From an uncultured Thiothrix sp. (GTDB lineage Bacteria; Pseudomonadota; Gammaproteobacteria; Thiotrichales; Thiotrichaceae), in NCBI GenBank assembly GCA_964293125.1, contig CAXYXY010000011.1, positions 16,171-48,170 on the forward strand: a stretch of DNA of 32,000 bases. The letters run 5' to 3'. The notes below the pieces were generated by a model. That model made no database searches and was not told the DNA's origin. It saw nothing but the letters and a program-made list of their open reading frames with translations. Shown here piece by piece: positions 7,615 through 23,648 of this stretch. Numbering within the stretch: the stretch's first letter is position 1; each line of letters begins with the position of its first letter. A program made the position numbers and the translations under genes.

Positions 7615-7644
7615 TAGAGAGCCTCTTAATTTTAGGACTCTCTA
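7615..7644. terminator. Weak hairpin between convergent HD gene and brxL (TAGAGAG-N16-CTCTCTA)
   Basis: 7-bp inverted repeat read directly. It overlaps the brxL stop codon and the loop is AT-rich. No clear U-tract, so this call is weak. Confidence 0.2.
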
Positions 7645-9698
7645 AATATATCAACTTTTGTCTCCAGACACTTTCGCAGTATCAAGTCATTGACGCCAAC
7701 ACCGAACCAGCTATCTGGCTTTTGGAAAAAGTCCAGACCCCGCCCTATCTTTATTATCCAGCCATTATCGATACGGATTTCACGATCATGCAAGTACTCG
7801 TTCACCTTTAAGTCGAGTGCAATGTCCAGTTCTAGCAGACTTTGTTTGAGTTCAGCCAGACGACCAGACATTTCTTTTACGTCGGTTTCGTCATCGTAGC
7901 TAGTGATCAGGGTAATATTGCGGATGCTAGGTGTCCGTATCACTGCCTCGCAGAACCTGACAAAGTTCTGAATCTGGTGAGTTGCTCGTATATATGGATC
8001 TTCAATTTCAATCGATTTAGCACATTCCAAGTAAGGACTAATGATTGAGTCGTAGCTATACCCAGTTGCACCATAATGGATTATAAAATGTTGCTCCTGA
8101 AGCTCGGGAACCGTCAATTCAGGTGTTTCTACGGGTTGTGGTTTAGGTTCTACTGGAGCAGCAGCTGTTTGTTTTTCGGGATAAACGACTTCACCTGCTC
8201 TAGCATGAATATCGCGCCGTACAGGTTCTTGGGTAGCATGGGCTAACCTTGATTCAGGGCAATAAACGATGACCTCCTGTCCTAGGGTATCCAGGTACGA
8301 GAGGTTGATTTTGGCAAATTCATCATCGGATTTGCGCTTGTTCATTTGTTCTTTCACTCGGCGGCGGGCTTCTATGGCATAGGCGACGTATTCCGTAAAC
8401 TCTTCGTCGGATGGTGAACCGGTTGGGTGTAGAATCTTCAGAAAAGCCGAAACAGTTTTCTTGATGCCTTTTTCATCCCGCCCTTCGATAGCAGTTCCCA
8501 GTTGTATACGCTTGCTGACTTCCTGATAGCGATTGGTTTGCTTCAATTGGTAATGAAAGGCTTCTGCAATGTAATCGGTAATAAATCCATAGCGATCAGT
8601 CAGGAAATCGCTACTGTTTTTGGGCATTTCCCAGCCCGGCAAATAGTTGGCGAAACGATCCATCACGGCCAGATCAAATTCTTTGGGCAAAGGTTGGAAT
8701 AGGTCATAGACCTCAGAGTTCACAATCTGCTCGACTGACAAATCCAGGTTGCCAACAAACGCCATCGACGCATCGGCAATCACCTCGACCCCACGGGAGA
8801 ATCGCCCATTGGCCATAAAGTCTTTCATGATCTGAATGGTGTCTTGGTCTTTGACCTTGATGCCTCCGACCTCATCGAATGCAACGGTATCCCAGAAGCC
8901 AACCAGGCCTATTTTCTTGCGCTGGTTGTTATAGAACAAGGTGGCTTTGGTGGCTTGTCCGCCACTGATGAGCGTGGAGTAGGGTGAGAATTCGCTGAAG
9001 AAGTAGGATTTGCCGGTGCCGCGTGGGCCTAATTCGATGAAGTTATAGTTAGGCTCCACCAAGGGCATCAGGCGGGCGATAAAGTGCAGCTTCAGCCGAT
9101 GGCTGAGTTTGCTGGGTTCTAGGCCTACCGAGCGTAGCACTGCATCGAGCCATTCATTGCGGCTAAATTCATTGCGTCCTTCACAATAGCGCTCAAAATC
9201 GAAGCGGCTCAACTGAATCGGACGTAAATCCTCGATGTAAAAGGCATAGTCATCGTCTTCAATTTCGTTGTAGGCGAGGGTGACTTCTGCCCACAAGCCG
9301 CCCTGTAATAGGCGGTCGTGATCACGGTAAAACTTTTCGCTGATCGCGACTCGGCGGGAGTCGAAGTTTTCCAATGCTGCCCAGTGACGGCGGTCGTTTT
9401 CCACGTAGTTAACGTGCACCTTATCAATAAAGCGGTACTTGCCTTTGGTGGCGACTTTGGACTGGGCTTTGTTGGCCTCGTTGGGGCGCACATAGTTATC
9501 TTGCAAGGTATCCAGTACGGCTTCCAGCCCCGCCTGGATTTCAGCAGCATCATCGCTGGCACAATAGCGAGCCAGCAAAAACTCTAACACGAAGGTCGGG
9601 ACATTAGTGCCTTTTTTGATGCGGTGTAACAAGTCTTTGCGCACCACTTTTCCATCAAAGATAGCTGTTAGTTTTTTATCCAAATCGTCCATTATCAC
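7632..9698 (-). CDS. brxL: BREX Lon-like protease/ATPase BrxL
   Basis: 688 aa. Walker A GPRGTGKSY, with size and terminal position typical of BrxL. The GTG at 9698 overlaps the pglZ stop (GTGA); an alternative ATG lies at 9692. Confidence 0.9.
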   Translation of the reverse strand: MIMDDLDKKLTAIFDGKVVRKDLLHRIKKGTNVPTFVLEFLLARYCASDDAAEIQAGLEAVLDTLQDNYVRPNEANKAQSKVATKGKYRFIDKVHVNYVENDRRHWAALENFDSRRVAISEKFYRDHDRLLQGGLWAEVTLAYNEIEDDDYAFYIEDLRPIQLSRFDFERYCEGRNEFSRNEWLDAVLRSVGLEPSKLSHRLKLHFIARLMPLVEPNYNFIELGPRGTGKSYFFSEFSPYSTLISGGQATKATLFYNNQRKKIGLVGFWDTVAFDEVGGIKVKDQDTIQIMKDFMANGRFSRGVEVIADASMAFVGNLDLSVEQIVNSEVYDLFQPLPKEFDLAVMDRFANYLPGWEMPKNSSDFLTDRYGFITDYIAEAFHYQLKQTNRYQEVSKRIQLGTAIEGRDEKGIKKTVSAFLKILHPTGSPSDEEFTEYVAYAIEARRRVKEQMNKRKSDDEFAKINLSYLDTLGQEVIVYCPESRLAHATQEPVRRDIHARAGEVVYPEKQTAAAPVEPKPQPVETPELTVPELQEQHFIIHYGATGYSYDSIISPYLECAKSIEIEDPYIRATHQIQNFVRFCEAVIRTPSIRNITLITSYDDETDVKEMSGRLAELKQSLLELDIALDLKVNEYLHDREIRIDNGWIIKIGRGLDFFQKPDSWFGVGVNDLILRKCLETKVDIFRES

Positions 9699-12223
9699 AC
9701 CGTATAGTCCGTTTCTAAGTCAAGCTGGCAATAAGCTATCAAGGTGGATGGGTTCAGGGCTTTTATTTTGAATTTACCTTCAAACTCCATTTGCATTTTC
9801 AAGGTAATCTGAATCTTATCGCCGGGTTTGAGGGTGATGGTTCCGGTTGCAGGGTTTACTCTACCACCAGGCTTGGCTTCACCGACAACATTGCCTTTCT
9901 TATCGTGCGCTTCCAGCAGGATTTCAAAATCGCTGCCGACAGAGAACATATCCTGGGTTTCGACACCCATTTCCACCACTGGCAAACGGGTGGTAATGCG
10001 CTTTGCACCGTTTTTGTAATTCAGCACGACCTGGGCTTGTTGCATGGCAGGTTGACCAGGTGCTTTCAGTTGCAGGCTAATGACCGGCACGACCAGTTCT
10101 TGTAAAGATGCGCCGCCGTGATAATACAACAGGCCAGTCCGGTAAGACGCCAAACTCAAAGGCCCACTCAAATAAGCGAAATCCCCCCGAATACCTGCCT
10201 TTTCTGCGCTGATCCGATAGTGGTTAGCATCAGCATTGCCATCTCCCAACAAACAGCGGTCATGAGTATTTTGCCAATTGCCCGCAGGTTTGGGGCAAGT
10301 GTCGCCTGCTCCGGCATGGGTATTCATAAAGAAACCGTGGTCGGTAGCAATCACCACCTCGTGGAAACCGGCATCTTTCAATTTATGGATAGCCACGCGA
10401 ATCCGTTTCAAGGCATTGATAATTTCAGCCGGGGCGGTATCCGGGTGGTTCTCGAACTGACTGTCGATTTCCACCGCACGCAGCACCAGCAATTCGGTGT
10501 GCGCTTCGATAGCGAAGCCCTTGCGCACAAACTCTTCTAGCCGCCCTTCCTGGAAGCGTTGGCCGTAGCGCTTTTTGATCCAGTCCATGCGCTGCTTAAC
10601 GGTGCTGACTTCCTGGTCATGGATGTAGGGGGTGAAGCCGCTGTCTTTTTTCACCAAGCGTAGCCCTGTCCCGGCTTCGGGCAGTAAGCTTGCCATACCC
10701 ACCAAGGTGATGCTGGGTAGCTGAGCTAGTGCGACCTGTAGGGTGACTTTACCGTCTTCTGCCAATTGTTTTTCCAACGCCATCCCTAGTTCATAGCGCA
10801 ATGCGTCGATCATCAGATAGGCGACCTTATGTCCACCCTGTTGCAGTTTAGGGGCAACCAGCTTATCGAATACGTCAGCATTCGCCAGACGTCCTGATAA
10901 GGGCCAGCCACTGTGTTGCAGATGACGGGTAAATAGCATCTGCACTTTTTCCGCTAGCTTGGCGTATTGCTTGCGCATTTGCTGCTGGACGGATTTCATC
11001 ACGCCTTGCACATCTTGCCACTCATAATCGCTGACTGCTTGTTCAAACTCCCGTTGCAAACGATCGACTTCGCGCAATTGGCGGGTGTAGAAATCCAGTA
11101 ACGCATCCATGCTTTGGGTATGTTCCGGCAAGCTGCGTTCTTTGTCCTGACAAGACTCCAGCAAGGCCAGGGCAGCACGCAGCAAGTCCCATTGGGTCTG
11201 GCTTTCGCCTTTGCCTGTCCAGACCGACTGGGCGTGGCGTTGCAGGATTTCCCTAACCTTATCGGTGTCGTCGCGCAATAGGGCTTCGATGGTGCGTTGC
11301 AGGAAGGTGCGCTCTTCAAACGGGAAGGTGTCGCGTGCGCCTAAGTCTTGCATGTGACCGCAGGAATCAGATAAGCCGAGTTCGGTTTCGATAGCTTCCG
11401 CCCGCTCGATGTAGATGTTCTGGGTGTTACGGTCGCTGCGCAGGCGTTCGCAAAGGTCTTCGATCAATGGCTGGGCGGCATCCAGCGCACGCGGCACATC
11501 GTGCAGGCTGGCGGGCAGCATCTCAGGTAAATCAAACACGAACTCACTGAACAAGACGAATCGCCACAACTCTTCCGTAATAGCTGACCAGGTTTTGCCG
11601 CGTGTTTTCAAGTGCAGCCCGATGCTGGCTTGCAATAGCTCCTTAGTCTCTGCTACCCAGGCATCGTTGGTTTTGAGTGATTCTTGCTGGTTGGCAGTCG
11701 GTACAAGTAAGGCAAATAGTATTTCACGGGCAGATTCGACCTTGAGTAAGGCACGCAAGTTCGGCCAACTGAGGCCACCGCCAATCGCGTCAATCACCGC
11801 GAAGCTGGGGTTGGGGTTTTGCGCGAAGACTGCACGGATTTGGGTGGCGTGGTCGGGTTTGGCTTGTAGGCACAAGCTCTGGAATCCGTCGCCATCACCA
11901 ACGGGAAAGACTGCCCCGCAGGCTGCGTACAGTGCAAAGGGGTCTTGCTGCCGCTCCTCATCTTCCAGTGGTACGCTGGCAGGCACATAAACCAGTAATT
12001 GTTGGATGGGATTCCGCTCAGCACCCATTTGGCTCAAGGTGGCAATTGCCTGAGCGCGGCTAGTAATACTGGATTCACTGGCATTCACCACGACTCGCTT
12101 GTCACTTGCCATATCTAGACACAGGTCGTGGTAACGCCGTTCAGGGTCATACACCACCATAACCTGATGTTTCTTTAGGCGCGGCTCAAACACCTCTGTT
12201 TTGATAAATTCTGCAATCGACAT
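9695..12223 (-). CDS. pglZ: BREX alkaline-phosphatase-superfamily protein PglZ
   Basis: PglZ-domain motifs MIDALRYELG and ATDHGF. About 842 aa from the ATG at 12223, which has a GGGAG RBS 7 nt upstream and lies 4 nt after the DUF4276 stop. The track's 12265 start would overlap the upstream gene. Confidence 0.9.
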   Translation of the reverse strand: MSIAEFIKTEVFEPRLKKHQVMVVYDPERRYHDLCLDMASDKRVVVNASESSITSRAQAIATLSQMGAERNPIQQLLVYVPASVPLEDEERQQDPFALYAACGAVFPVGDGDGFQSLCLQAKPDHATQIRAVFAQNPNPSFAVIDAIGGGLSWPNLRALLKVESAREILFALLVPTANQQESLKTNDAWVAETKELLQASIGLHLKTRGKTWSAITEELWRFVLFSEFVFDLPEMLPASLHDVPRALDAAQPLIEDLCERLRSDRNTQNIYIERAEAIETELGLSDSCGHMQDLGARDTFPFEERTFLQRTIEALLRDDTDKVREILQRHAQSVWTGKGESQTQWDLLRAALALLESCQDKERSLPEHTQSMDALLDFYTRQLREVDRLQREFEQAVSDYEWQDVQGVMKSVQQQMRKQYAKLAEKVQMLFTRHLQHSGWPLSGRLANADVFDKLVAPKLQQGGHKVAYLMIDALRYELGMALEKQLAEDGKVTLQVALAQLPSITLVGMASLLPEAGTGLRLVKKDSGFTPYIHDQEVSTVKQRMDWIKKRYGQRFQEGRLEEFVRKGFAIEAHTELLVLRAVEIDSQFENHPDTAPAEIINALKRIRVAIHKLKDAGFHEVVIATDHGFFMNTHAGAGDTCPKPAGNWQNTHDRCLLGDGNADANHYRISAEKAGIRGDFAYLSGPLSLASYRTGLLYYHGGASLQELVVPVISLQLKAPGQPAMQQAQVVLNYKNGAKRITTRLPVVEMGVETQDMFSVGSDFEILLEAHDKKGNVVGEAKPGGRVNPATGTITLKPGDKIQITLKMQMEFEGKFKIKALNPSTLIAYCQLDLETDYTV

Positions 12224-12227
12224 ATGC

Positions 12228-12848
12228 TTACTCCCAAGCCAATACCGTAGCAATGGCGCTGGCAAATGCGTTAAAACTGGCTGATTGGTTATTGTCAGGA
12301 TTCAGGTGTGACGCAATCTCACGCGCACATTCCAGCTTGCGTAAGCCCGTAGGGAAATACCCGGCTTTTTTCAGTACCCGCTCCAATGCCTCCCATGTCC
12401 CACCACTGATGGCGTCCGGGTCACGGTAGGGTTTCTTTTGGGGAATGCTGGCGGGTACACGTGGATAAACCTGTTGCACCGCCTTCCAATCACCAAAAAA
12501 CCAGGCTTCCAATTCCTCAATCACAATGCGGTTCACCACTTGGAAACGTTGCCCCGCTGCTACCCTTGTTTTGGTGAGTAATCCTGCCTGTTGGGCAGTT
12601 TGCTCCAGTTGCTGTTTTAAGACAGCACAATCGCTGTCGTCACGATCCACCAGCACCAGAAGCGCCCAATTGTTTGGCAACCACTGGCTGTAGCCCTTTA
12701 GCCGGGCAGGAAGCTGCTTTAACAAGTCGTCTTTGCATTGGAAACGGATAATCTGAAACTCGACATCCCCCAACATGCGCGGCAATAGCCCTTCCAGCGC
12801 AGCCTCCATGGAAATTTCTTCCACCAGTACGATGAGCTTTTCCAGCAT
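12228..12848 (-). CDS. DUF4276-like small protein with a Toprim-like acidic motif pattern
   Basis: 206 aa. N-terminal strand plus acidic LIVLVEEISMEAA, then VLVDRDDSD (DxD) and VIEELEAWFF. This matches my memory of DUF4276 and resembles the Toprim E...DxD arrangement. Its ATG is 3 nt after the ATPase stop. Confidence 0.65.
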   Translation of the reverse strand: MLEKLIVLVEEISMEAALEGLLPRMLGDVEFQIIRFQCKDDLLKQLPARLKGYSQWLPNNWALLVLVDRDDSDCAVLKQQLEQTAQQAGLLTKTRVAAGQRFQVVNRIVIEELEAWFFGDWKAVQQVYPRVPASIPQKKPYRDPDAISGGTWEALERVLKKAGYFPTGLRKLECAREIASHLNPDNNQSASFNAFASAIATVLAWE

Positions 12849-12851
12849 CCG

Positions 12852-14096
12852 CTATTTTCCTATTGCTTTTTTTCTGGGTGCGCCAAGGTTCACCAGTGGG
12901 TCGCCCAAACCGAAATGCCCTTCCATCCACAAATAACCAAGGCTTGCCCCGGCTTTGACGAATTCGTTAATGCCCTGAATCTCCGCTGCGCATACCGCTT
13001 GGGTGAAACCGTGTTCGTCACGGTACAACACGCGCACTTCCTCCGGGTGCATGGCATTCAGCAAGAAAGGGGAATGGCTGGTAATGAGCAGTTGTGAGCG
13101 TTCAGACGCTGCCCGGCATTCTTCCGCCAGTTCTGGCAGCAGGCGCGGGTGCAGGAAATTTTCCGGCTCTTCGATGCCGATAAAGCGCGGCGGGTCGGGG
13201 TCATACAGCATGGTCAAATAAGCCAGCATCTTCATCGTGCCATCCGAGGCATATTTGGCTAGTACGGGTTGCTCGAAAGGCGCATCCTTGATTTGCAACA
13301 ATAAACGCCCATCCGGCATGGGTTCTGCTTCTACCCGTTCCAGCCGGGGGATGCGCTGGCGTAATACTTTAAAAATCTGCTCCAGACGTTCGGGGTGTTG
13401 CTCTTTCAGGTACTGGATGACATTGGGTAGGTTTTCACCGCTCTTACTCAGGCGTTCTTGTGGTCCGGCTTCGGGTTGGTTACGTGTCTGGTCAATCGAC
13501 AGGTAAGACACGTACCAGTTGGTGATAAATTCGCGCAACGCGGCAACGCGGGGGTGATTGGAAAACTGCCCCAAGGTGTTCACGGCGATCAGGTCGGGGG
13601 AGCGCAAATGGGTTTCTTCGCGGATGTCGTCTTCGTCCGGGGTTTCGCCGCTGGCGGCGCGACCAATCCCACGGGAAAATTCCAGAAAGCGGAACGGCTT
13701 GCCTTTGCTGCCGCGCCGCCATTGCAGCCATTCCTCGACCACTTCGGGGCCTTTAGCGCCTTCGTCGATAGCCAAGTGGTAGGTAATGATCGGGCTTTTG
13801 GGCTTTTCGCGGTATTTCAACTCGAATACGATGGGGCCACTTGCACCACGGCTTTTTAGCTCCCGCCCCCTGCCGCGCCTATCCCAAGCATGGCGTAAAC
13901 CGTATTGGAAGCATTCAGACAGGAAGTTGAACACATCAAACAGGGTCGATTTGCCGCTGCCGTTCGGCCCCAGTAACACGGTCATGGGGGTGAGCTTGTT
14001 CAGCTCGATTTTTCTGAGGGCGCGGTAGTTTTCGACGCGGAGTGATTCAATGCGCGGGATACCGTTTGCACTGTTTAGGGTTTCTTCAACAGCCAT
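12852..14096 (-). CDS. ABC-type AAA_15/AAA_21 family ATPase (OLD/AriA/PtuA-like)
   Basis: 414 aa. Walker [10 protein letters not shown], signature-like ASDGTMKML, Walker [16 protein letters not shown]-loop ITSHSP. AGGGAG RBS 7 nt upstream of the ATG. Lies 39 nt downstream of the pglX stop. Confidence 0.85.
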
Positions 14097-14135: not shown

Positions 14136-17100
14136 TTACATCATCCCTGCTATTTTGGTGCGAATCAATGCGTGCAACTGTGCATCCGTCATGGGGATGG
14201 GTTGCCATTCGAGTTTGGTTTCACCGCTGCCTTTTTTGCCGCGTTTGGTTTCGACTGCTACTTCATGCCAAAAGTCGGCTTCGACATCGTGGGCAATCGC
14301 CAGACTGCGGTCTTGGTGGCACTTGCGTAGTACGCGCTCAGGCCAGATGCTGTAGGCGAGGTGCGCCCAGTCGTAGTCGCCTTGTTCGAGTGCTTGCCAA
14401 GTTTCCTTGAGTTTTTTCTGCCAGGCTTTGTGCTGGAACAGTTTCCAGAGTGGCGCGGCGGTGATTTGCACACCGTCGTTGAGGTTCGGCTTCCAGAATT
14501 TGGCAATCCGCAGCAGCTCATCACGGAAATCCTTGAGTTCGGCTTCCAAGTCCAGCAGGCGGGCGAAATCCTTTTCCTCCTGACTGTTGCGGGTCTTGTT
14601 GCGCAAGCCAGTTAGGTCATCCTTGACCGTTTTCAGCTTCGGCTCCACGAAATCATTCACGCAGGTGTATAGCGTCTGTTCGCTCAGGCGATGGTAGTAC
14701 ACCCACAGTGTGTAAGAACCGGACGGGGTTTGCAAAGGCCAATAAATCGGCGCTTGCCGTCCAGATGATGAATAGCGGCTCAGATGAAAATCAAAAAAGC
14801 CGTTCGACTGTTCAATAAATGTTTCTAAACTCTTGGAACTCACGAAATCAGAAAAAAATTGAGTAATTTCAGTGTAATCGAATCCTAGAGAATTCGATTG
14901 GATGGCTGTAAGCAAGCTGGGGGCATCCAGTATTCCTATAAACCCTTTTTCATTGTCTTCAATAGCCCAGCGATCAAAGCAAACGCCAAAGAGGTAAACC
15001 AATAAATCTAGAATCAGCAACTTGGCAATTTCACAATTATCACGCTCAGACCACCTGGGAATGCACTCCTGAGGTGTCTTCTTTGAATAACTATTTAAAT
15101 CTTTTAAATCTTCGATCCCTTCAATTTTATAAATAGCATTAACTAATTCATCTATGTCGTTATGGATTTTCATAACTCCAGCCTGATCAAAACTTAATTC
15201 CACCACAAAATCATGCAATTGAGATCGCAGATCTTTTTGTGATAATAAATATGGTGATTTAAAGAATATTGTTGTTTCGTCCCATGAAAAGTATTTTTCC
15301 TTCAAGGAAATGATTTCTTCGACCTTACTTACTATTTGTTTTTTTAATTTATAGGAAGATGCTTCAAAATCAGGAGCAGGCATAAGATTAATATACCCGG
15401 AATACTTATGTTGGCCAGCATAAGTATTTAATATCCTAGATGCAAAAGTCGAGTTAAGAATAGCTAATACAAGAAGGCTCGTTTCTTTGTTTTCAATTGG
15501 AATACATTGCCCTTCAACCGTAAAGATTGCCTCTTTATTCATTATGTGAGCATCTAAATATTCACCTCTTTTTCCAAAGCATACGCCAGGTTTAAAATGT
15601 TGATTTTTATTTTGGATTCTATATGAGTATGACGGAAAATTATCCGATCCTAATTTTTTATATTTTCCATATTTGGCTACTTCTCGCTTAGGATTGGCAT
15701 ACCTAGTAAATTCCCCGCCATTGTATAAATAACAATATTCAGCTTCAGCACCAATTTTTTCATTCAGAGGTAACTCCCAAAAAACTCGAAAATGCCTTTC
15801 AGATTGCAATTGATGGCCTGTATATCCTGTCAAACCTAATGCAGAAAATGACTGAAGGGATTGAAAAGTATTTAGCAGGCCAGAGGGAAGATCATAAATC
15901 AAGGCTGAATTAGGGAAGCTATTGAAGCAACTGGTTTTATGTAATACGAAATTTTTATTTTGAACGATTTCAAACAAAGCCTTAGATTTTTCGTCGAGTG
16001 AAAAGTCTCTCAAATTAATAAAATAGGTTAACGGCTTTGAATGTTTTCGCTCACTCAGAATTAGAGACGAAACTTCAACGTTTGCTTCTAGTACATCCCA
16101 TCCCAAGTCACAAATTAACTCCAAGGAGTCTGATTCGAGAAGAACTCGTTTTCTAAAATTCTCATAAGAAGATTTATTAATAGGGCTTCTATCAATTACA
16201 GATCCAGTTAAACCTCCCTCACCCAACTTTTTGCTTAATCTAGAAATGAACGCACACAGAATATTTTTCGACCACTCAGGGTAGGTTTTTTCCAAATAAC
16301 GATTTGTATTCGCTGCACATTCGCCAAACGGGGGGTTCATGAGGACGACATCGAAGCGTTTGCGGCAGAGGTCGATAAAGGCGAAGCCTTTGGCGGCATC
16401 GTCGGCGAACAGGCGTTTTTGGTCGGATTGAGTGGATGCCTGGCTGGCGTAGTCGCTCAGGGCTTGCAGGATGCGCTGCTCGGCATCATCCCAGAAGGTT
16501 GCATCGTTAATCCCCCGCAAGTCAAACCCCAACTCGCGCTGCGGTGTCGCCGCCACCAATTCCGCCGGGAACATATCCCAACTCGTACCCTTGGCGGATT
16601 GCTGTTGCCACTGCGCCCGCGCCCCGGCAATCGCCCCCTGCATTTCCTCCTCGATCTTCAACAGCGTGCCCGCTTCCCCCGCCAGTTGCATCTTGTCGAA
16701 TACCCCCTCCACCAACTGCCCCAACACCGGCGGATACAACTGCGCGGTAAACTCCTGCAACAAGGCTTTCTCCCCCGGCATCGGCTCCGCACACACAATA
16801 TTCGATCGCCGGATCACCGGACGAACCTGCGGCTTCACCCGCAATACCTGCCAAGCCCGCTGCGCCCGCTGCCACAACGATAAGCCCGCAATCTGCACCG
16901 CACGCGGATCAATATCCACCCCATGAATATTGCGCTCAATAATCAACTTGGGGATTTGCACCTGAAACGCTTCAAAACTGGCATAAGTCGCCTGCAACGG
17001 CTGCAAGCCCGCACTACGGCTAAACGCTTGCGGCCCCAGCTCACTTTCCAGTTGCCAAGCCTCCTCATAAATCCGCACAAACAGGTCAAACGCATACAAA

Positions 17101-18113
17101 CCAAAATGCATCGAGCCACATGCCGGGTCGAGCATCAGAATATCGCGTGGGTCTTTTAAAGGGCGATGGGGAAACCCCTCCCCAACCCTCCCCTTATCAG
17201 GGAAGGGAGCTTTATCACACTCCGCCACACTATCCAAACTGGCATCTTCGCTCCTCCCCTGATAAGGGGAGGCTGGGAGGGGTTTCTCCCGCACCAAATA
17301 CCGGCAAGCCTCCACCAGCCCGGTCTTACCCTGCGTCATCTCATACCAGATGCGCCCCAAGGTATTATCGGTGAGGAACTCCACCACATAACGCGGCGTG
17401 AAAAACTGGTTGCGCACCGCCAATTCACGGCTATTGCGCGGCGCTTGCGACTCGGAGCGCATTTTCTTGCGCTCTTCCTGCGAATTGAAATACTGGTAAA
17501 TCCAGCCGATGGTTTCATCTTCCGCCCATAACGGCTCCAGATCAGGGTGGTTGATCTGCTCCAGCAACTCCAGCAACGCAGCCTCACGCGGGAACAAACG
17601 CCCCTGTGGGCTATAGCGATCAAACAACACCGCCAAATCCAGACTGAACTCATCAAACAGGCTGAACAGATAATGCCGGTAAGCATCGCCCGTTTCCCCC
17701 AGACTGCTGCCCGCCAACTGCTTGTACAACTGGAAACCTTTCGAGTTATACCCCTTAGCGACCGACTCCAGCAAAAAGCCCCGCGCCTCTGCCATGCGCA
17801 AAGCCGCCAACCGATTCAATACGGTGAACGCCTGCTCACGCACAATCCGCGCCGACACCTGCTGGGTACGCTCCTTTGGCGTCTTGCCGGGCGTATTCGC
17901 CAGATAATGCGTCAAGGTTTCCCGCAAACCCTGCGCCACCTGCCGCTGGCGGTTATCCAGTTGGCTCAATGCACTGACTTCCGCGACCGTGCCGGTTTTC
18001 GGGTCAAGCCCGTAAGTGGCCTGCAACTGGCGGGTGAATTCCTCGCTCAAACCGTCGCGGGCGGCATTGACGAACTTTTGCAGCCGGTTACGGGTACTTT
18101 GATCAAATGCCAT
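14136..18113 (-). CDS. pglX: BREX N6-adenine DNA methyltransferase/specificity subunit PglX
   Basis: 1325 aa. N-terminus typical of PglX (RNRLQKFVNAARDGLSEEFTRQL), motif I LDPACGSMHF, catalytic motif IV NPPF (residues 593-596). Sits between brxC and pglZ. AAGGAAA RBS upstream of the ATG at 18113. Confidence 0.9.
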   Translation of the reverse strand: MAFDQSTRNRLQKFVNAARDGLSEEFTRQLQATYGLDPKTGTVAEVSALSQLDNRQRQVAQGLRETLTHYLANTPGKTPKERTQQVSARIVREQAFTVLNRLAALRMAEARGFLLESVAKGYNSKGFQLYKQLAGSSLGETGDAYRHYLFSLFDEFSLDLAVLFDRYSPQGRLFPREAALLELLEQINHPDLEPLWAEDETIGWIYQYFNSQEERKKMRSESQAPRNSRELAVRNQFFTPRYVVEFLTDNTLGRIWYEMTQGKTGLVEACRYLVREKPLPASPYQGRSEDASLDSVAECDKAPFPDKGRVGEGFPHRPLKDPRDILMLDPACGSMHFGLYAFDLFVRIYEEAWQLESELGPQAFSRSAGLQPLQATYASFEAFQVQIPKLIIERNIHGVDIDPRAVQIAGLSLWQRAQRAWQVLRVKPQVRPVIRRSNIVCAEPMPGEKALLQEFTAQLYPPVLGQLVEGVFDKMQLAGEAGTLLKIEEEMQGAIAGARAQWQQQSAKGTSWDMFPAELVAATPQRELGFDLRGINDATFWDDAEQRILQALSDYASQASTQSDQKRLFADDAAKGFAFIDLCRKRFDVVLMNPPFGECAANTNRYLEKTYPEWSKNILCAFISRLSKKLGEGGLTGSVIDRSPINKSSYENFRKRVLLESDSLELICDLGWDVLEANVEVSSLILSERKHSKPLTYFINLRDFSLDEKSKALFEIVQNKNFVLHKTSCFNSFPNSALIYDLPSGLLNTFQSLQSFSALGLTGYTGHQLQSERHFRVFWELPLNEKIGAEAEYCYLYNGGEFTRYANPKREVAKYGKYKKLGSDNFPSYSYRIQNKNQHFKPGVCFGKRGEYLDAHIMNKEAIFTVEGQCIPIENKETSLLVLAILNSTFASRILNTYAGQHKYSGYINLMPAPDFEASSYKLKKQIVSKVEEIISLKEKYFSWDETTIFFKSPYLLSQKDLRSQLHDFVVELSFDQAGVMKIHNDIDELVNAIYKIEGIEDLKDLNSYSKKTPQECIPRWSERDNCEIAKLLILDLLVYLFGVCFDRWAIEDNEKGFIGILDAPSLLTAIQSNSLGFDYTEITQFFSDFVSSKSLETFIEQSNGFFDFHLSRYSSSGRQAPIYWPLQTPSGSYTLWVYYHRLSEQTLYTCVNDFVEPKLKTVKDDLTGLRNKTRNSQEEKDFARLLDLEAELKDFRDELLRIAKFWKPNLNDGVQITAAPLWKLFQHKAWQKKLKETWQALEQGDYDWAHLAYSIWPERVLRKCHQDRSLAIAHDVEADFWHEVAVETKRGKKGSGETKLEWQPIPMTDAQLHALIRTKIAGMM
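14780..16320 (-). other. AT-rich segment inside pglX (residues ~598-1111: distal methyltransferase half plus presumed target-recognition region)
   Basis: Hand counts of sample 60-nt lines give about 25-30% GC here (15301, 15901) against about 63% in the adjacent pglX 5' part (16561). The upper boundary falls immediately 3' of the NPPF codons. The lower boundary falls just before the conserved PIYWPL...WVYYHRL block. Confidence 0.75.
17168..17290. repeat. Imperfect palindromic REP/MITE-like element inserted in frame in pglX
   Basis: The left arm GGGGAAACCCCTCCCCAACCCTCCCCTTATCAGGGAAGGGAG (17168-17209) pairs with the reverse complement of 17251-17290 (GGGAGAAACCCCTCCCAGCCTCCCCTTATCAGGGGAGGAG). 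Conserved blocks are GAAACCCCTCCC and CTCCCCTTATCAGGG, with a ~41-nt spacer. It encodes the low-complexity peptide REKPLPASPYQGRS...PFPDKGRVGEGFPH (residues ~275-316). Confidence 0.65.
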
Positions 18114-18122
18114 GGGCTTTCC

Positions 18123-21100
18123 TTACTCTGCGGCTTTCAGTTCAATGCTCAGTTCAAATTCGTGGGCGTATTTCAGTTCACCACGTACATGCTGTAATTC
18201 GGCAATCAGTGCATCCAGGTCTGCCAACACAGTAACACGCGGCGGAGCTTTTACGAAACGGGTGATTTTCTTCTTACCCTCCTTGACTGCCTGCTCCTGC
18301 TCCTCCCGCAACTTGTCCTGCAAACGCTGTTGGCCGATACGCCGCAAGCGCTGTTTCACATCCTGCACCTGGGTTTGGATGCTGTATTCCTGATTCACCA
18401 GGGTACGCAAACCACTCAGATCGGCATTGGCAGTCACCGTCAACTGCTCCAAATCTGCCAGCAGGTTGTTTTGCTCCTGCTGGGTCAGTTCTTTCCACTC
18501 AGGAATGCGGTACAGGTCTTGCTGGGTGTCTTTGATACGCTGCTGTTGCTCGCCTTGCATCGCCAATACCGTGTCACGAATCCTTGCTTGCAAGGTGGTC
18601 AGGCCACTGGCGAATTCGGTGGCGTAACGGAAGAAGTCGGCATGACTTAAGCGTTCTTTGAGGTTGGCGAGTGTTTCCGCCAGTTCCTCTTTCAAACGCC
18701 CCGGCGTGCCACTATCCGGCAGGTTGCTCAGTTCGCGGCGGTGGCGTTGCAGGTTTTGCAGGGTCGGTTCCAGCCCCTGTTCCAGCGCCCGTTTCAACTC
18801 ACCCGCCCAACGCAGATTATTAAACAGGTCGGAATCTTCCCCGCCCAAGCGTTGTGGCGCGTCGGATGCATCCGTAAACAGGATGTCCTTGATGTCCTGA
18901 CTGAGCGTTTCTAAGCGCTCGACACCCGGCAATTGCAATGCTTTGAGCTTTTCCGCCAAGGGGCCATATTGGTGCTGGAGTTGTGGAAACAGCTTAGTGG
19001 TCGCTTTGCTGATGTCATCCTCCAGCGGCACGACCATATCGCCACTGAGTTCGGTCAAACGGCTGGCAGCATTCGCCAGCATTTCCATGCTGGGGCGCTC
19101 TTCGCGCAGGGAGACGCCAATGCTTTTGAAGCTGTTATTGGTCTTGAGCGCATCAATCGCTTGTTGTCCATTGACGGTGACTTCCCGCCCCGCCACTTTC
19201 AGTTTGATTTCCCCCGCCACCAACATCGCAGCCATCAGGTAACGCAGGGTATCCGGCGACCAACCGTAAGGCGCATCAGTGAAAATATCCGTCAGGCGTT
19301 TGCCTTCCATTAACCCTTGCCGTTCAATCATGTCGCGGATGCTGGTCATGGCTTTGTGGCTGGTGTTGATGGAAGGGCGACCAGCCTGTGTTTGCACCAA
19401 ATTCAAGGGATCTAATAAGTTGGTGATGCCGGTCAAGTTGCCTTGGCGCAGGAATTTTTCTGCCAGGTCAGTATTCGCCCGTACCGGTGCTTCGCTGTAA
19501 CGGTCAAACACTTGCTCTGCGACACCTGCCAGGTGTTTGCGGGCAGCTTCGATCAATTCCTGATGCAGCGTTTCTACTGCAGTCACTTCACCCCGGAAAA
19601 TGAATGAGCCTTGCAACAGGCTACGCTTGAGCAGGCGCTCCAGCTCTACCAGCAAACGGTTGGCCCGGTCTGTTTGCCCGGCGCAGTAGTCTTTGATTTC
19701 CTGATCGGGTTCATTACGGTATTTGCTGACAATTTCCTTGCTGCGATGAATTTCAGCGGTCAGCTCTTCCATTTCTGGCAGGGTGCGCCCCAGCAGGAAG
19801 AGGGTATGCGTGGCGGTTTTATGACGGCTTTCATCAATCATGCGTGCCTTGGCGGTGTTGTAGTTTGCCGGTTCCACCAGCTCCACCACGGTTTGCACCG
19901 TATTACGCTCACCCGACAATGAAGCAGGCACGCCACCCGCGTTTTGGGCTTTTAACCCGGTCTGGACAGATAAATTCCCATGCAAATGGGTAGCGGGTAA
20001 AGGCGAATACGCTTCACGCAGTGCTTCATTCTGGATACGGCGCATCTCCATCGCCCGTAGTGGAATGGCAGCGCGTTCCTGTTCAATATCATTGAGCTTT
20101 TCACTGAAAAACAGCAGTTGCCCATCCTGTTCGCCAAACGGCACGAAGGCATCGCTGATCAGCTCCTCAATGGCCTGTTTCACGGCATCCGAGTGGGATG
20201 AGGCGCTAATACCGGGGTGCATGAGACTAGCAACGTTTTGCACCGTAATCGGCAAGTTATTCAGGATTTGCAGCACACACACCGTTTTACCAATGTCTCG
20301 GTGCAATCCTGAAGTAGGGAAGTGCTGCTTGACTTTGCCGACTGCTGCATGAAGAGAAGCAAAAGAACGACGTATGTCTTTTTCCAAAGCATCAAACAAT
20401 GTGATGGTCGTTGCCAGCCAGCCAACCGACTGATTGGCAATTGGCGTATGCCCGTCCGCACCTTCCACCAGTACATCCTGAACCACCTTGATAGCGGAAC
20501 GCAGACCAATACCACCAGTGGATTTAGCTAAAGCGCCCAACAAATGCAGCAAAATATCGAAATGCGCAGGCAGGAACGGGTAAAGGTTAACAAAGGTTTG
20601 CCGGTCAAAATCAGCACCGTAGGCACGCGCATCCACCAATTTGGTATTATGCCGCAGGGCTTGGCCGTGCTTATCGAATAAAGTGCCTAGCTCGCCCTCA
20701 CCCTGGGGAGACTTGCCCAACAATCGGCTATAACAAATTTCCTTGATGTCATTGGCTTCGAGGTCGATCTGGATGGGGAAGCGGTCTTTGAGCTTGTAGA
20801 GTTCGGCTGAATTCAAGGCAACTTTTGAATCATCTTCGGTCAGGGTTTGCTGGGCAGTACCGATGATCCAGACTTTGCCGTTACCGATGTTCTTGAGGTT
20901 TTTCGCCAAGCCATCCAGGTTCAGGATCAGGTTCTGGCGGGAGCCGACGTATTGGCCCACTTCGTCGATAATAAAGATGATGTATTCTTTGCCAGTGGCC
21001 TCACGGGCAATGTCCAGCATTTCCCCCACCCGGTCATTTTCAAAGCGGATCACTTCGCTGGTTTCGGTTGAGAATGAATGGGCGGTTTTAAATAGTCCCG

Positions 21101-21755
21101 GATACATTTGGTGGGCAATTTCAGGGATCAGGCTGTCCACCACCAATTCGTCGTTACGGTAGTTTTGCCATTCCTCCCCGCCGGTATGTTCGCGGAACAG
21201 TTGCAGGAATTCGGCATGGCGGCCTTCTTTTTGCAGCTTGCGTTCAAAGGCGGCCACTTTCAGGTTGCGTGAATAACCCGCCCATTGCAGCACCTTGTAA
21301 TACAGCACGGTGGAAACTTCTTCCATCGTCGCCCCAGCCACCTGTTCACTGGCCAGGTCAAGCATCAGCACGGCGGCGGGGAAACGCTTGGCAACCGTAT
21401 TCAGCAAGGCTTTGGTGGTGGATTTTTTTAGGCGGTCTTGCAGGTGCTGGATGAACGGACTGCCATCAATCTTGATATTGTCGTCAAACGCCAAGCCCAG
21501 ATACTTGGTGAACGAGCTTTTGCCCGAGCCGTAGAAGCCGGAAACCCATACACCGACTTCATTCTCCCCACCTGCTTCCATCGCCATCTGCATCTTGCTG
21601 AGCAGCTTTTCAAATTGCTCTTCGATGCTTTCCGTCACCACGTACTCGGAGATTTCCGCTTTCAAGCGTTGCTCTTGGGAAACGCCATAGGTAATGACTT
21701 TCTCAATGGTGCGGTAGATGTCTTTGTCGTTGGCGAATAGTGCTTTGATTTCCAT
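18123..21755 (-). CDS. brxC: BREX P-loop ATPase BrxC/PglY
   Basis: About 1210 aa. Walker A GFYGSGKSSFTKYLG, a large coiled C-terminal region, and the expected position after brxB. Start set at ATG 21755 (AGGGGA RBS); the track's TTG at 21776 overlaps the brxB stop. Confidence 0.9.
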   Translation of the reverse strand: MEIKALFANDKDIYRTIEKVITYGVSQEQRLKAEISEYVVTESIEEQFEKLLSKMQMAMEAGGENEVGVWVSGFYGSGKSSFTKYLGLAFDDNIKIDGSPFIQHLQDRLKKSTTKALLNTVAKRFPAAVLMLDLASEQVAGATMEEVSTVLYYKVLQWAGYSRNLKVAAFERKLQKEGRHAEFLQLFREHTGGEEWQNYRNDELVVDSLIPEIAHQMYPGLFKTAHSFSTETSEVIRFENDRVGEMLDIAREATGKEYIIFIIDEVGQYVGSRQNLILNLDGLAKNLKNIGNGKVWIIGTAQQTLTEDDSKVALNSAELYKLKDRFPIQIDLEANDIKEICYSRLLGKSPQGEGELGTLFDKHGQALRHNTKLVDARAYGADFDRQTFVNLYPFLPAHFDILLHLLGALAKSTGGIGLRSAIKVVQDVLVEGADGHTPIANQSVGWLATTITLFDALEKDIRRSFASLHAAVGKVKQHFPTSGLHRDIGKTVCVLQILNNLPITVQNVASLMHPGISASSHSDAVKQAIEELISDAFVPFGEQDGQLLFFSEKLNDIEQERAAIPLRAMEMRRIQNEALREAYSPLPATHLHGNLSVQTGLKAQNAGGVPASLSGERNTVQTVVELVEPANYNTAKARMIDESRHKTATHTLFLLGRTLPEMEELTAEIHRSKEIVSKYRNEPDQEIKDYCAGQTDRANRLLVELERLLKRSLLQGSFIFRGEVTAVETLHQELIEAARKHLAGVAEQVFDRYSEAPVRANTDLAEKFLRQGNLTGITNLLDPLNLVQTQAGRPSINTSHKAMTSIRDMIERQGLMEGKRLTDIFTDAPYGWSPDTLRYLMAAMLVAGEIKLKVAGREVTVNGQQAIDALKTNNSFKSIGVSLREERPSMEMLANAASRLTELSGDMVVPLEDDISKATTKLFPQLQHQYGPLAEKLKALQLPGVERLETLSQDIKDILFTDASDAPQRLGGEDSDLFNNLRWAGELKRALEQGLEPTLQNLQRHRRELSNLPDSGTPGRLKEELAETLANLKERLSHADFFRYATEFASGLTTLQARIRDTVLAMQGEQQQRIKDTQQDLYRIPEWKELTQQEQNNLLADLEQLTVTANADLSGLRTLVNQEYSIQTQVQDVKQRLRRIGQQRLQDKLREEQEQAVKEGKKKITRFVKAPPRVTVLADLDALIAELQHVRGELKYAHEFELSIELKAAE

Positions 21756-21772
21756 TGTGTTCCCCTGATTAT

Positions 21773-22345
21773 TCAACCACCGACGTGGACAGAGCGATAA
21801 TTACCATCTTCTGGATAGAAGCCCAAAAATTTCAGCCGGGTTTTCCCGGTACGCACGCCGGGATAGAAAAACACGGTGGGCACATGGAACCTGCCGTGGA
21901 GCTGGTTCTCAATGGAACCAATCCGCAAGTAGGGATGTAGCGCCTCTATGTCCGCCACCAGCAAAATGTTGTTTGCCTGCCCTTCCAAGCTGGCAAGCAC
22001 TGCTTCAAGCTTGTTTTGCAAGGAACCATTTGTTAGTGCATTCGCCAATGACTTATTGGTTTTCTCCCATTGCAAGGGGGCTTTGGCATCAGCAGCCAAC
22101 CAGATTTTTTTCAAGGGCGCGGCATCCAGAATGTCCTGAATAGCTTGAGCTATCGAGAATTTATGGACGTTCCACCCCTCATTTCGTAGCTTCGCTTCCC
22201 ACGCTGGCAGGTTGCGTTTTACCTCCAGAATCTCTGCCGGGTGAAACACCAGGTAAAAGATGGGTTCGAAACTGGCGTGACCGACTTCCCGCCCTGTTTT
22301 TAGTCGTTCCACCAATTCGCTGAAATCAGTTTTGAGTGATGACAT
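21773..22345 (-). CDS. brxB: BREX protein BrxB (DUF1788)
   Basis: 190 aa. The size, the position between brxA and brxC, and motifs (PIFYLVFHP, ALHPYLRIGSIE, VPTVFFYPG, GNYR) match my memory of DUF1788. Confidence 0.85.
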   Translation of the reverse strand: MSSLKTDFSELVERLKTGREVGHASFEPIFYLVFHPAEILEVKRNLPAWEAKLRNEGWNVHKFSIAQAIQDILDAAPLKKIWLAADAKAPLQWEKTNKSLANALTNGSLQNKLEAVLASLEGQANNILLVADIEALHPYLRIGSIENQLHGRFHVPTVFFYPGVRTGKTRLKFLGFYPEDGNYRSVHVGG

Positions 22346-23138: not shown

Positions 23139-23611
23139 TGATAGTTTTGCTGAAAAGCTTTAAGGTAGCGTGCAGCGGCCTCGTTTAACAAGCTTTCCAG
23201 TGCATCGTCCTGAAACATACCAACCGCAACTGGCCCTTCTACTTTTTCAGTGGATACCTGCGTCAATTCCCCTAGAGCAGCAAGTGCAGCATCTTGACCA
23301 GATAAGCTATTTTTCAAGGCCATATTATTATCTTGAGTCTGGATATGTTCAGCGACTATTCGTTCAATCGAATTGGGTAGACGATAGAGGTGATAGGTAT
23401 TGCCTACGCCTATATGCTGATCGTGTGATAGCAAAGCAGCCTCACAAACGCCATTATACTGTGCAAGTAGGGTAGTCCGTGGGTAAATGGGCAGTAAAAA
23501 ACTCTCACTGGCTCGGCTGAAAAAATTACTGCCCCACCAAAATTTTTGATGTTTTTCACCTATATAGCCAACTAAGATTCTTAAGATTGAGACTTTCATA
23601 CCAATATTCAT
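23111..23611 (-). CDS. Hypothetical protein, first gene of the BREX operon (possibly BrxE-like accessory; unverified)
   Basis: 166 aa from the ATG at 23611 (AGGAA RBS 6 nt upstream); the track used an upstream TTG at 23635. It overlaps the brxA start by 28 nt, which suggests translational coupling. I recognise no motif. Confidence 0.5.
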   Translation of the reverse strand: MNIGMKVSILRILVGYIGEKHQKFWWGSNFFSRASESFLLPIYPRTTLLAQYNGVCEAALLSHDQHIGVGNTYHLYRLPNSIERIVAEHIQTQDNNMALKNSLSGQDAALAALGELTQVSTEKVEGPVAVGMFQDDALESLLNEAAARYLKAFQQNYQCFPYMRQV

Positions 23612-23648
23612 TCTGATTCCTAGAGTGATAGGCAATATGAGGTATGAG

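What the first reader, a model, noticed from the sequence alone, without database searches (positions are those of the whole stretch)
14780..16320. pglX is a compositional mosaic: a ~1.5-kb AT-rich cassette starting right after the NPPF motif
- **Composition:** Within one intact 1325-aa ORF the GC content drops sharply. Hand-counted 60-nt lines give about 25-30% here against about 60% in the flanks.
- **Boundaries:** the switch occurs exactly 3' of the NPPF codons (around 16320). Composition returns to operon-like values near 14780, just before the conserved C-terminal block PIYWPLQT...WVYYHRL.
- **Content:** the low-GC part encodes the distal methyltransferase half plus the region expected to hold target recognition.
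- **Interpretation:** the simplest reading is a recent homologous-recombination swap of the specificity module from a low-GC donor, anchored on conserved flanking motifs. That would change the BREX recognition motif. In a ~55% GC host, an AT-rich tract may also create internal promoters or nucleoid-protein silencing sites upstream of the ATPase-DUF4276-pglZ-brxL genes.
Basis: partly seen in the sequence, partly recalled or inferred. Interest (0 to 1): 0.7.

Follow-up and report, generated by a model that had tools for sequence, protein, structure and literature searches.

The report
AT-rich swappable specificity cassette in pglX
The middle third of this BREX phage-defence methyltransferase gene is an AT-rich, exchangeable module holding the DNA-recognition parts; relatives swap such modules between otherwise near-identical operons, so this is a clear case of a known way of changing defence specificity, not a new system.

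Summary
Inside the intact 1325-aa pglX (14136-18113, minus strand), GC falls from 56.8% to 34.6% and GC3 from about 0.67 to 0.29 between 16309/16310 and 14782/14784 (aa 602-1110). That is 6.4 SD below any other same-sized stretch of the window.

The breakpoints lie 5 residues after NPPF and 11 before PIYW, where family conservation also collapses and recovers. Across 185 homologues, N-segment identity tracks C-segment identity (rho 0.86) but not the middle (rho 0.05). Proteins at least 95% identical in N have middles with a median identity of 25%. Three sister operons are 95-97% identical in DNA on both sides of an unalignable ~1.5-kb middle, which shows allelic cassette replacement directly.

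The fold model places the distal methyltransferase lobe, the TRD, the spacer helices and the proximal C-terminal domain in the cassette.

Two qualifications apply. An AT-rich middle is family-wide (61 of 63 loci, even in low-GC hosts), so a low-GC donor organism is not required. No donor was found: the nearest cassette is 65% identical, so the swap is "recent" only relative to the backbone. The promoter and silencing ideas are unsupported.

Verdict: a well-documented member of a known kind, specificity-module exchange, and moderately interesting.

The parts
14136..18113 (-). pglX (brxX), an intact 1325-aa BREX-1 N6-adenine methyltransferase and specificity factor
   Evidence: ORF. Pfam Eco57I and N6_Mtase. 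PADLOC PglX model at 1393 bits. Sequence hits to 8c45, 9ewz and 8zek.
16311..18113 (-). Conserved N segment (aa 1-601): N-terminal helical domain plus the MTase core through motif IV. Its composition is host-like (GC 57.8%, GC3 0.70).
   Evidence: 57-77% identity to 120 homologues. Consensus frequency about 0.8. GC values.
16326..16337 (-). NPPF catalytic motif IV (aa 593-596), the 5' anchor of the cassette
   Evidence: Motif position. In the family the 5' exchange junction peaks at aa 595-599.
14784..16310 (-). AT-rich exchangeable cassette (aa 602-1110): GC 34.5%, GC3 0.29
   Evidence: Change points. Identity to homologues is only 20-65%. Cassette identity is uncoupled from N and C. No other ORF of 50 aa or more in the tract.
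15909..16310 (-). Cassette part 1 (about aa 602-735): the distal lobe of the MTase domain after motif IV. It is equivalent to E. coli BrxX ~517-650, which holds the backbone-contacting lysines and the loop reading base 6. Boundaries are approximate.
   Evidence: Alignment to 9ewz and 8c45. Model strands at aa 635-700. Residue roles from PMC11842806.
15369..15908 (-). Cassette part 2 (about aa 736-915): target recognition domain, an alpha/beta fold. Boundaries are approximate.
   Evidence: Model. Foldseek match to 9ewz_C and 8c45 at TM 0.74-0.80. TRD limits of the solved structures from PMC11842806 and PMC11341690.
15114..15368 (-). Cassette part 3 (about aa 916-1000): two long spacer helices
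   Evidence: Model helices at aa 921-942 and 962-994. Corresponds to Salmonella PglX spacers 850-960 (PMC11341690).
14784..15113 (-). Cassette part 4 (about aa 1001-1110): helical proximal part of the C-terminal domain, the least conserved stretch of the family
   Evidence: Consensus frequency 0.10-0.37 at aa 961-1100. Model.
14136..14783 (-). Conserved C segment (aa 1111-1325) with host-like composition (GC 54%, GC3 0.65). It begins with the PIYWPLQTPSGSYTLWVYY block, with PIYW at 14739-14750.
   Evidence: 58-80% identity to homologues. Consensus frequency 0.88 from about aa 1103. The 3' junctions fall at aa 1110-1139.
18123..23635 (-). Upstream BREX-1 genes: brxE-like (23111-23635), brxA (22326-23138), brxB (21773-22345) and brxC (18123-21776)
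   Evidence: Pfam BrxA, BrxB and BrxC wHTH. orf174 is 53% identical to the BrxE of L001.
7632..14096 (-). Downstream genes: HEC-01-like ATPase (12852-14096) and DUF4276 (12228-12848) inserted in the operon, then pglZ (9695-12265) and brxL (7632-9698)
   Evidence: Pfam. PADLOC HEC-01A/B.

Best explanation
The AT-rich tract is the exchangeable specificity cassette of a type 1 BREX PglX.

In this PglX clade the gene has a conserved scaffold and a hypervariable middle. The scaffold is N (aa 1-601: N-terminal domain and the catalytic MTase core up to NPPFG) and C (aa 1111-1325, from just before PIYWPLQT). The middle is about 510 aa. By homology with the DNA-bound E. coli BrxX structure, it carries every base-reading element except the adenine pocket. 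These are the post-motif-IV MTase lobe with the loop that reads position 6, the TRD that reads positions 1-4, the spacer helices and the proximal CTD.

Alleles of this middle are replaced as a unit by homologous recombination in the conserved flanks. This is shown in the family. For the window it is inferred.

In the window's lineage, N and C have equilibrated to the ~53-57% GC genome. The cassette keeps GC3 0.29, so it has a shorter or different residence history and was installed by such a replacement. Its source was an AT-rich cassette pool, whose nearest known member sits in a ~39% GC metagenomic operon.

The expected consequence is a BREX recognition motif different from that of operons with the same scaffold but another cassette. 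This is inferred and not tested.
For: Composition:
- Breakpoints at 14782/16309, z = -6.4, GC3 0.29 vs 0.65-0.70.
- The breakpoints coincide with the family conservation boundaries.

Module behaviour in the family:
- Across 17,020 pairs of 185 homologues, N-vs-C identity gives rho 0.86 and N-vs-M gives rho 0.05. The 237 pairs with N >=95% have median M identity 25%.
- In 417 near-identical-scaffold pairs the divergence junctions are at aa 580-600 (407 pairs; 415 within 575-604) and aa 1110-1139 (397 pairs).
- L001, L084 and L085 are 95-97% identical in DNA from brxC to pglX codon ~594-614, and from codon ~1100 to the end of brxL. The ~1.5 kb between is unalignable.

Separate history in the window:
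- At identical-aa codons against L001, GC3 is N 0.72/0.34, C 0.65/0.33 and M 0.30/0.22.
- Directional synonymous changes are 193:33, 70:21 and 72:48.
- N+C GC tracks host GC (slope 0.98, r 0.94), whereas M lags (slope 0.68).

Content of the cassette:
- The model of aa 561-1160 (pLDDT 87.7) matches 9ewz_C and 8c45 at TM 0.74-0.80 with 16-18% identity.
- Base contacts in E. coli BrxX all lie C-terminal of NPPY (PMC11842806).
- All M homologues sit at the same position in PglX-length proteins.

No repeats, silent copies or recombinase lie at the edges, so this is not site-specific inversion.
Against: - No close relative of the window's own operon exists in the collections; the best scaffold identity is 77%. 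The replacement in this lineage is therefore inferred from composition and from sister lineages, not seen directly.
- The nearest cassette is only 65% identical, and its divergence from the window's is similar to that of the scaffold (69-72% DNA identity throughout). Co-descent of cassette and scaffold is not excluded by sequence distance alone.
- The AT bias of M is family-wide and holds even in low-GC hosts. Some force other than recent import may keep M AT-rich, which would weaken the composition-based dating.
- Recognition-motif change and methylation were not tested.
Confidence: 0.8

Rival explanations
1. One reading: a single recent transfer of the module directly from a low-GC organism into this ~55% GC host, by crossovers in the conserved motifs.
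For: The cassette has GC3 0.29 in a genome with GC3 of about 0.60-0.67. The nearest cassette relatives (L001 at 65% aa, L004 at 48%) are in hosts of 39-41% GC, with cassette GC 30-32%. Only a slight GC-ward shift is seen at synonymous sites (72:48).
Against: Both edges return to host-like GC3 within about 15-30 codons, with no low-GC spill-over into the conserved flanks where the crossovers would have to lie. A low-GC donor's flanks would be only about 70% identical in DNA, which is poor substrate for homologous recombination. The AT-rich middle occurs in 61 of 63 loci, including high-GC hosts with unrelated cassettes, so a similar-GC relative could have been the donor. No donor closer than 65% was found in any collection.
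Confidence: 0.3
2. There was no transfer in this lineage. The middle is vertically inherited and is kept AT-rich, or driven AT-rich, in situ. The cause would be fast evolution under diversifying selection with AT-biased mutation, weaker GC-restoring forces, or selection for AT-richness.
For: The AT bias of M is nearly universal in the family and holds in low-GC hosts too (GC3 0.21-0.27 vs 0.34-0.36 in L001, L004, L007, L008 and L013). Window-to-L001 divergence in M is of the same order as in N and C. Amino-acid composition accounts for about half of the GC deficit.
Against: In-situ divergence cannot give ~25% identity between cassettes of proteins that are 98% identical in N and 93% in C, nor unalignable DNA inside 95-97% identical operons. 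Replacement is therefore demonstrably the dominant process in the family. Synonymous sites within a single transcript differ by 0.4 in GC3 across a boundary 15-30 codons wide. That is hard to obtain from mutation bias alone.
Confidence: 0.12
3. Assembly chimera or other artefact that joins reads from two organisms at conserved motifs.
For: The source looks like a draft or metagenome-type record: the protein is known from NCBI and ENA on 3 contigs without a name. Conserved motifs could in principle mis-join contigs.
Against: The reading frame is intact across both junctions and the full PglX architecture is preserved. The same protein is on record on three contigs, up to 111 kb long. The same pattern is seen in dozens of independent isolate genomes and complete chromosomes, for example L014, L042, L068 and L024. 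Two precise in-frame mis-joins would be needed.
Confidence: 0.02

Closest known systems
E. coli HS BrxX and Salmonella PglX (PDB 9ewz, 8c45; PMC11842806, PMC11341690)
   Same: They share the BREX-1 operon context, the gamma-class N6-adenine MTase with an NPP[FY] motif, and the domain order NTD-MTD-TRD-spacer-CTD. The fold match is TM 0.74-0.80 for aa 561-1160. [quoted passage not shown]
   Different: Sequence identity is only 16-18% in the cassette region. The window belongs to a different PglX clade whose N and C parts are 70-78% conserved across very distant hosts. The naturally exchanged unit mapped here (aa 602-1110) is much larger than the TRD. It also takes in the post-motif-IV MTase lobe, the spacers and the proximal CTD. 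Neither the compositional mosaic nor the exchange junctions are mentioned in the papers I read.
Type I R-M HsdS target-recognition-domain exchange by recombination in conserved regions (own knowledge; example held in the library: Xylella fastidiosa preprint 10.1101/2022.09.01.506293, listed)
   Same: Variable DNA-reading domains are flanked by conserved sequence. Allelic replacement by homologous recombination generates new methylation and restriction specificities. Specificity genes are typically AT-rich relative to the genome (own knowledge).
   Different: Here the module sits inside a single-chain MTase and specificity protein, not in a separate S subunit. One cassette is exchanged rather than two half-site TRDs. 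It carries part of the catalytic domain with it.
Type IIL/IIG enzymes of the MmeI family (PDB 5hr4)
   Same: They are single-chain gamma-class MTases with the TRD C-terminal to the MTase. Specificity is set by the TRD plus MTase-domain contacts. Structural similarity was detected (rank 45).
   Different: The window's protein has no nuclease domain. The BREX-specific NTD and CTD are present. It works within a six-gene BREX complex.
Phase-variable pglX with a silent partial copy and an adjacent recombinase (reported for some BREX loci; own knowledge, Goldfarb et al. 2015)
   Same: Both diversify PglX specificity by swapping the C-terminal part of the gene.
   Different: The window has no inverted repeats at the cassette edges, no second pglX fragment and no recombinase. 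Exchange here is between genomes, not a programmed switch within one genome.

Membership tests
BREX type 1 system | Gene set and order brxA-brxB-brxC-pglX-pglZ-brxL on one strand | tested here: met
   Pfam BrxA, BrxB, BrxC wHTH/DUF6079, Eco57I/N6_Mtase, PglZ, and BrxL_N + BrxL_ATPase are all on the minus strand from 23138 to 7632. A BrxE-like gene lies upstream. A two-gene HEC-01-like insert lies between pglX and pglZ.
PglX/BrxX methyltransferase | Gamma-class N6-adenine MTase motifs (motif I GxG, motif IV NPP[FY]) in a ~1200-1400-aa protein with BREX-specific N- and C-terminal domains | tested here: met
   DPACGSMHF and NPPF are present. PADLOC PglX model at 1393 bits. Hits to 8c45 and 9ewz by sequence and by fold.
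PglX/BrxX methyltransferase | Methylates a 6-bp asymmetric BREX site and is required for defence | not testable with these tools
   Needs methylome sequencing and phage assays.
Exchangeable specificity module (as in HsdS or MmeI-type TRDs) | A hypervariable segment bounded by conserved sequence, with its identity uncoupled from the rest of the protein | tested here: met
   N-vs-C rho 0.86 and N-vs-M rho 0.05. Conservation profile.
Exchangeable specificity module (as in HsdS or MmeI-type TRDs) | Different modules on near-identical backbones, i.e. allelic replacement with defined junctions | tested here: met
   Met for the family: 417 pairs and L001/L084/L085 at the DNA level. For the window's own lineage no close relative exists, so it is inferred from composition.
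Exchangeable specificity module (as in HsdS or MmeI-type TRDs) | The module contains the base-contacting residues | tested here: inconclusive
   The fold and alignment place the equivalents of E. coli BrxX 517-1071 in the cassette. That range includes the position-6 loop 587-601 and the TRD contacts K681, D684, R751, Q784 and N823 (PMC11842806). No DNA complex was modelled for this protein.
Exchangeable specificity module (as in HsdS or MmeI-type TRDs) | Exchange changes the recognised DNA motif | not testable with these tools
   Needs methylomes of strains with different cassettes on one scaffold.
Phase-variable (inverting or shufflon) pglX | Inverted repeats at module edges, a silent partial pglX copy and a nearby site-specific recombinase | tested here: not met
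   No repeat pairs flank 14784-16310. There is no second pglX-like ORF and no recombinase in the 32-kb window.
Xenogeneically silenced AT-rich island or internal promoter source | Excess of promoter-like sites; binding by H-NS-type proteins; internal transcripts | tested here: inconclusive
   Promoter-like sites number 5 against 6.5 +/- 2.6 in shuffles of 12000-19000. Four of the five lie inside the cassette, two of them on the sense strand. Protein binding and transcription are not testable here.

The most novel reading that the evidence does not exclude
The AT-richness of PglX specificity cassettes may not be a passive trace of a low-GC donor. It may be a family-wide, maintained property. 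On this reading the ~1.5-kb NPPFG-to-PIYW module behaves as a quasi-mobile 'gene within a gene'. It would circulate across phyla faster than it can equilibrate to any host, or it would be held AT-rich by selection, for example for regulation by nucleoid proteins or to limit recombination to the two conserved anchors. The natural junctions would then define the correct cut points for re-programming BREX specificity by whole-cassette transplantation.
Probability: 0.25. Interest if true: 0.65.

Novelty: new member of a known kind. Interest (0 to 1): 0.45.

Why it matters
PglX sets which 6-bp motif a BREX system marks as self and attacks in phages. The finding shows that nature re-programmes this by swapping one ~510-aa block, cut just after NPPFG and just before PIYWPLQT. 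That gives a concrete design rule for engineering BREX specificity. Published attempts used point mutations, and loop grafts lost defence (PMC11842806).

It also explains why closely related strains may differ in methylome and phage range. It is a caution for annotation and HGT detection too: a strong intragenic GC step in pglX is the norm for this family, not evidence of an assembly error. The family-wide AT bias of the cassette, present even in low-GC hosts, is an open quantitative question about how fast-cycling defence modules escape compositional equilibration.

Tried and rejected
- The word-indexed protein search with the cassette alone returned only 8 weak fragments and missed even the query's own protein. 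The AT-biased, low-complexity word content swamps the candidate list, so it was not used.
- The exhaustive search of 50%-identity representatives cannot resolve cassette relatives, because whole PglX proteins cluster on their conserved N and C parts. It only showed that all cassette homologues sit at the same place in PglX-length proteins.
The source organism remains unidentified.
- Scans for close cassette relatives found nothing closer than 28% identity: JGI metagenomes, viral contigs, plasmids and phages.
- A shufflon or site-specific recombination model was rejected: there are no flanking repeats, silent copies or recombinase.
- An embedded gene on either strand was rejected: no other ORF of 50 aa or more lies in 14700-16400.
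- The multiple alignment is unreliable in the gappy region aa 930-1100. It understated P0002 identity there, so pairwise alignment was used instead.
- Synonymous-difference fractions (0.49 in M vs 0.60-0.65 in N and C) were not used for dating, because sites are near saturation and composition differs between segments.
Full report
**1. The observation**

The window carries a type 1 BREX operon on the minus strand. The genes are brxE-like (23111-23635), brxA (22326-23138), brxB (21773-22345), brxC (18123-21776), pglX (14136-18113), pglZ (9695-12265) and brxL (7632-9698). A two-gene insert lies between pglX and pglZ (12228-14096): an AAA_21 ATPase plus DUF4276, matching the PADLOC candidate system HEC-01. 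The operon sits among polyamine-metabolism and other housekeeping-type genes.

pglX is an intact 1325-aa ORF. A two-breakpoint likelihood fit on its GC content puts the switches at 14782 and 16309, which is aa 601/602 and 1110/1111.

| Measure | Cassette | Rest of pglX | Rest of window |
|---|---|---|---|
| GC | 34.6% | 56.8% | 52.9% |
| GC3 | 0.29 | 0.65-0.70 | 0.53-0.70 (other genes), except brxA (0.48) and the brxE-like gene (0.39) |

No other 1527-nt stretch of the window falls below 46% GC, so the tract lies at z = -6.4.

The '25-30%' figure is a little too low as an average. NPPF is aa 593-596 and PIYW is aa 1122-1125, so the switches lie 5 residues after the first motif and 11 before the second.

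Roughly half of the deficit comes from amino-acid usage. FYMINK residues make up 33% against 21%, and the same protein with the window's codon usage would be 45.8% GC. The other half comes from codon choice.

**2. What the tract is**

A full-length search found 120 homologues. I cut each at the query's breakpoints.

| Segment | Identity to the query |
|---|---|
| N | 57-77% |
| C | 58-80% |
| Middle (M) | 20-65% |

Most M values are near 23%. A family alignment shows the same picture. Consensus frequency is about 0.8 up to aa 600. It is 0.1-0.6 from 601 to 1100 and 0.88 from about aa 1103. The compositional and conservation boundaries therefore coincide.

Across 17,020 pairs among 185 homologues, N identity predicts C identity (Spearman 0.86) but not M identity (0.05). 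The 237 pairs with N at least 95% identical have a median M identity of 25%.

In 417 pairs with N at least 93% identical and M below 40%, sustained divergence starts at query aa 580-600 in 407 pairs (415 if the 575-604 bins are counted), peaking just after NPPFG. It ends at aa 1110-1139 in 397 pairs.

At the DNA level I compared three metagenomic operons: L001, L084 and L085. L001 carries the cassette closest to the window's. They are 95-97% identical from brxC to pglX codon ~594-614, and again from codon ~1100 to the end of brxL. The ~1.5 kb between has no detectable similarity. This is allelic cassette replacement on a common backbone, with junctions at the window's two GC breakpoints.

**3. 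What the cassette contains**

An AlphaFold model of aa 561-1160 (mean pLDDT 87.7, pTM 0.89) matches E. coli BrxX bound to DNA (9ewz_C) and Salmonella PglX (8c45). The TM-score is 0.74-0.80 over about 640-660 aligned columns, at only 16-18% identity.

By these alignments, aa 602-1110 correspond to about residues 517-1071 of E. coli BrxX. That range has three parts:
- the MTase lobe after motif IV, with the backbone-contacting lysines and the 587-601 loop that reads base 6;
- the TRD (651-837), which reads bases 1-4;
- the spacer helices and the proximal CTD.

Domain limits and residue roles are from PMC11842806, and PMC11341690 gives the same layout for Salmonella. The adenine pocket (motifs I and IV) stays in the conserved N segment. 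By inference, then, the exchanged unit carries all sequence-reading elements together. It is far larger than the TRD alone.

**4. History in this genome**

No close relative of the window's operon is in any collection. The best scaffold identity is 77%. The nearest cassette is that of P0002/L001, at 65% aa identity and 69% DNA identity. It lies in an operon whose flanks are about 39% GC.

Comparing the window with L001 at codons that encode the identical amino acid gives the following.

| Segment | GC3 window / L001 | Window-GC:L001-AT vs the reverse |
|---|---|---|
| N | 0.72 / 0.34 | 193:33 |
| C | 0.65 / 0.33 | 70:21 |
| M | 0.30 / 0.22 | 72:48 |

The scaffold has therefore fully drifted to the host's composition while the cassette has barely begun. 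This is what is expected if the cassette was installed after the scaffold had equilibrated.

Both edges return to host-like GC3 within 15-30 codons. No repeats flank the cassette, and there is no silent pglX copy or recombinase. The event was homologous recombination in the conserved anchors, not programmed inversion.

**5. The qualification: this is a family trait**

In 63 non-redundant loci from genomes spanning many phyla, M is lower in GC than N+C in 61. The mean difference is about -0.10. Several loci approach the window's -0.22:
- L014, Flexilinea: -0.20;
- L042, Marinobacter: -0.20;
- L006, Endozoicomonas: -0.18;
- L057: -0.18.

N+C GC follows the flanking genome (slope 0.98, r 0.94), whereas M follows it only partly (slope 0.68, r 0.69). 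The deficit persists in low-GC hosts, where GC3 is 0.21-0.27 against 0.34-0.36. In the 23 loci with a strong signal, unsupervised breakpoints fall within 30 residues of the NPPF boundary in 19. The 3' composition break is more scattered.

Three points follow:
- The window is the extreme of a general pattern.
- An AT-rich cassette does not by itself identify a low-GC donor organism. The proximate donor could be a similar-GC relative that already carried an AT-rich cassette, which would also explain the lack of low-GC spill-over into the flanks.
- Why the cassette pool is AT-rich everywhere remains unexplained.

**6. The regulatory ideas**

A consensus scan of 12000-19000 finds 5 sigma-70-like sites, against 6.5 +/- 2.6 in shuffles. 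Four are inside the cassette, two of them on the sense strand (16013-15986 and 15417-15390). AT content alone would produce this. Nothing here supports or excludes internal promoters or silencing by nucleoid proteins.

**7. Comparison with what is known**

The BREX structure papers already state that the TRD is the most variable part of BrxX and that it sets specificity (PMC11842806, PMC11341690). A 2026 survey notes rapid TRD divergence (PMC12839542). Exchange of recognition domains by recombination is classical for Type I HsdS and is known for single-chain Type IIG/IIL enzymes (own knowledge; the Xylella preprint listed).

In the papers I read and in my literature searches I found none of the following for PglX:
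- whole-cassette allelic replacement;
- its junctions;
- the size of the unit;
- the family-wide AT bias.

My searches were limited, so I do not claim these are unpublished. I file the finding as a new, well-resolved member of a known kind of process.

**8. Verdict**

- Observation: confirmed.
- Interpretation: partly supported. The module swap anchored on conserved motifs holds. 'Recent, from a low-GC donor' is plausible but unproven and not required. The regulatory consequences are untested.
- Artefact: very unlikely. The frame and fold are intact, the protein is on record on three contigs of up to 111 kb, and the same pattern appears in many isolate genomes.
- Interest: moderate. The practical value is the natural cut points for re-programming BREX specificity. 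The open question is why these cassettes stay AT-rich in every host.

Noticed in passing
window 12228-14096 (-): An AAA_21 ATPase (12852-14096) and a DUF4276 protein (12228-12848) match the PADLOC candidate defence system HEC-01 (E = 3e-164 and 1e-87). They are inserted between pglX and pglZ, and their GC is normal (0.52-0.55). The sister operons L001, L084 and L085 lack this insert. The pglX-pglZ gap is a known hotspot for embedded defence genes (PMC11341690).
   Followed up: partly
window 17169-17290 (inside pglX, aa ~275-315): Two copies of a GC-rich 20-nt palindrome (CCTCCCCTTATCAGGGGAGG and CCTTCCCTGATAAGGGGAGG) lie 46 nt apart and in frame. They sit in the least conserved loop of the N segment (identity to homologues 0.08 at aa 281-300). 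No other copy occurs in the 32-kb window. This may be a small REP/MITE-like element tolerated in a surface loop.
   Followed up: partly
window 22326-23635 (-): A second, milder low-GC patch lies at the head of the operon. The brxE-like orf174 has GC3 0.39 and brxA has GC3 0.48, against about 0.6 elsewhere. orf174 has no Pfam hit but is 53% identical to the BrxE of L001.
   Followed up: partly
loci L004-L083 (pglX relatives): The 3' end of the low-GC tract in relatives falls into discrete classes relative to the homology-defined cassette end: about 0-10, +45-60, +85-104, and -112 to -147 residues. Sequence-divergence junctions, by contrast, are tight at aa 1110-1139. This may reflect sub-cassette exchange or differing ages of the distal helical part.
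   Followed up: no
loci L001, L004, L007, L008, L013 (low-GC hosts): The cassette is AT-richer than the scaffold even where the host itself is about 39-42% GC (GC3 0.21-0.27 vs 0.34-0.36). The family-wide bias is therefore not simply import from lower-GC donors.
   Followed up: partly
window 7632-23635 against flanks 1-7582 and 23694-32000: The whole BREX island is inserted between polyamine uptake and catabolism genes (potG, potF, a GS-like gene, an aminotransferase and an oxidase) and a cluster encoding an acyltransferase, an ATP-grasp protein and a decarboxylase. Apart from the cassette and the operon head, its GC3 matches the neighbours, so the island as a whole looks long-resident.
   Followed up: no
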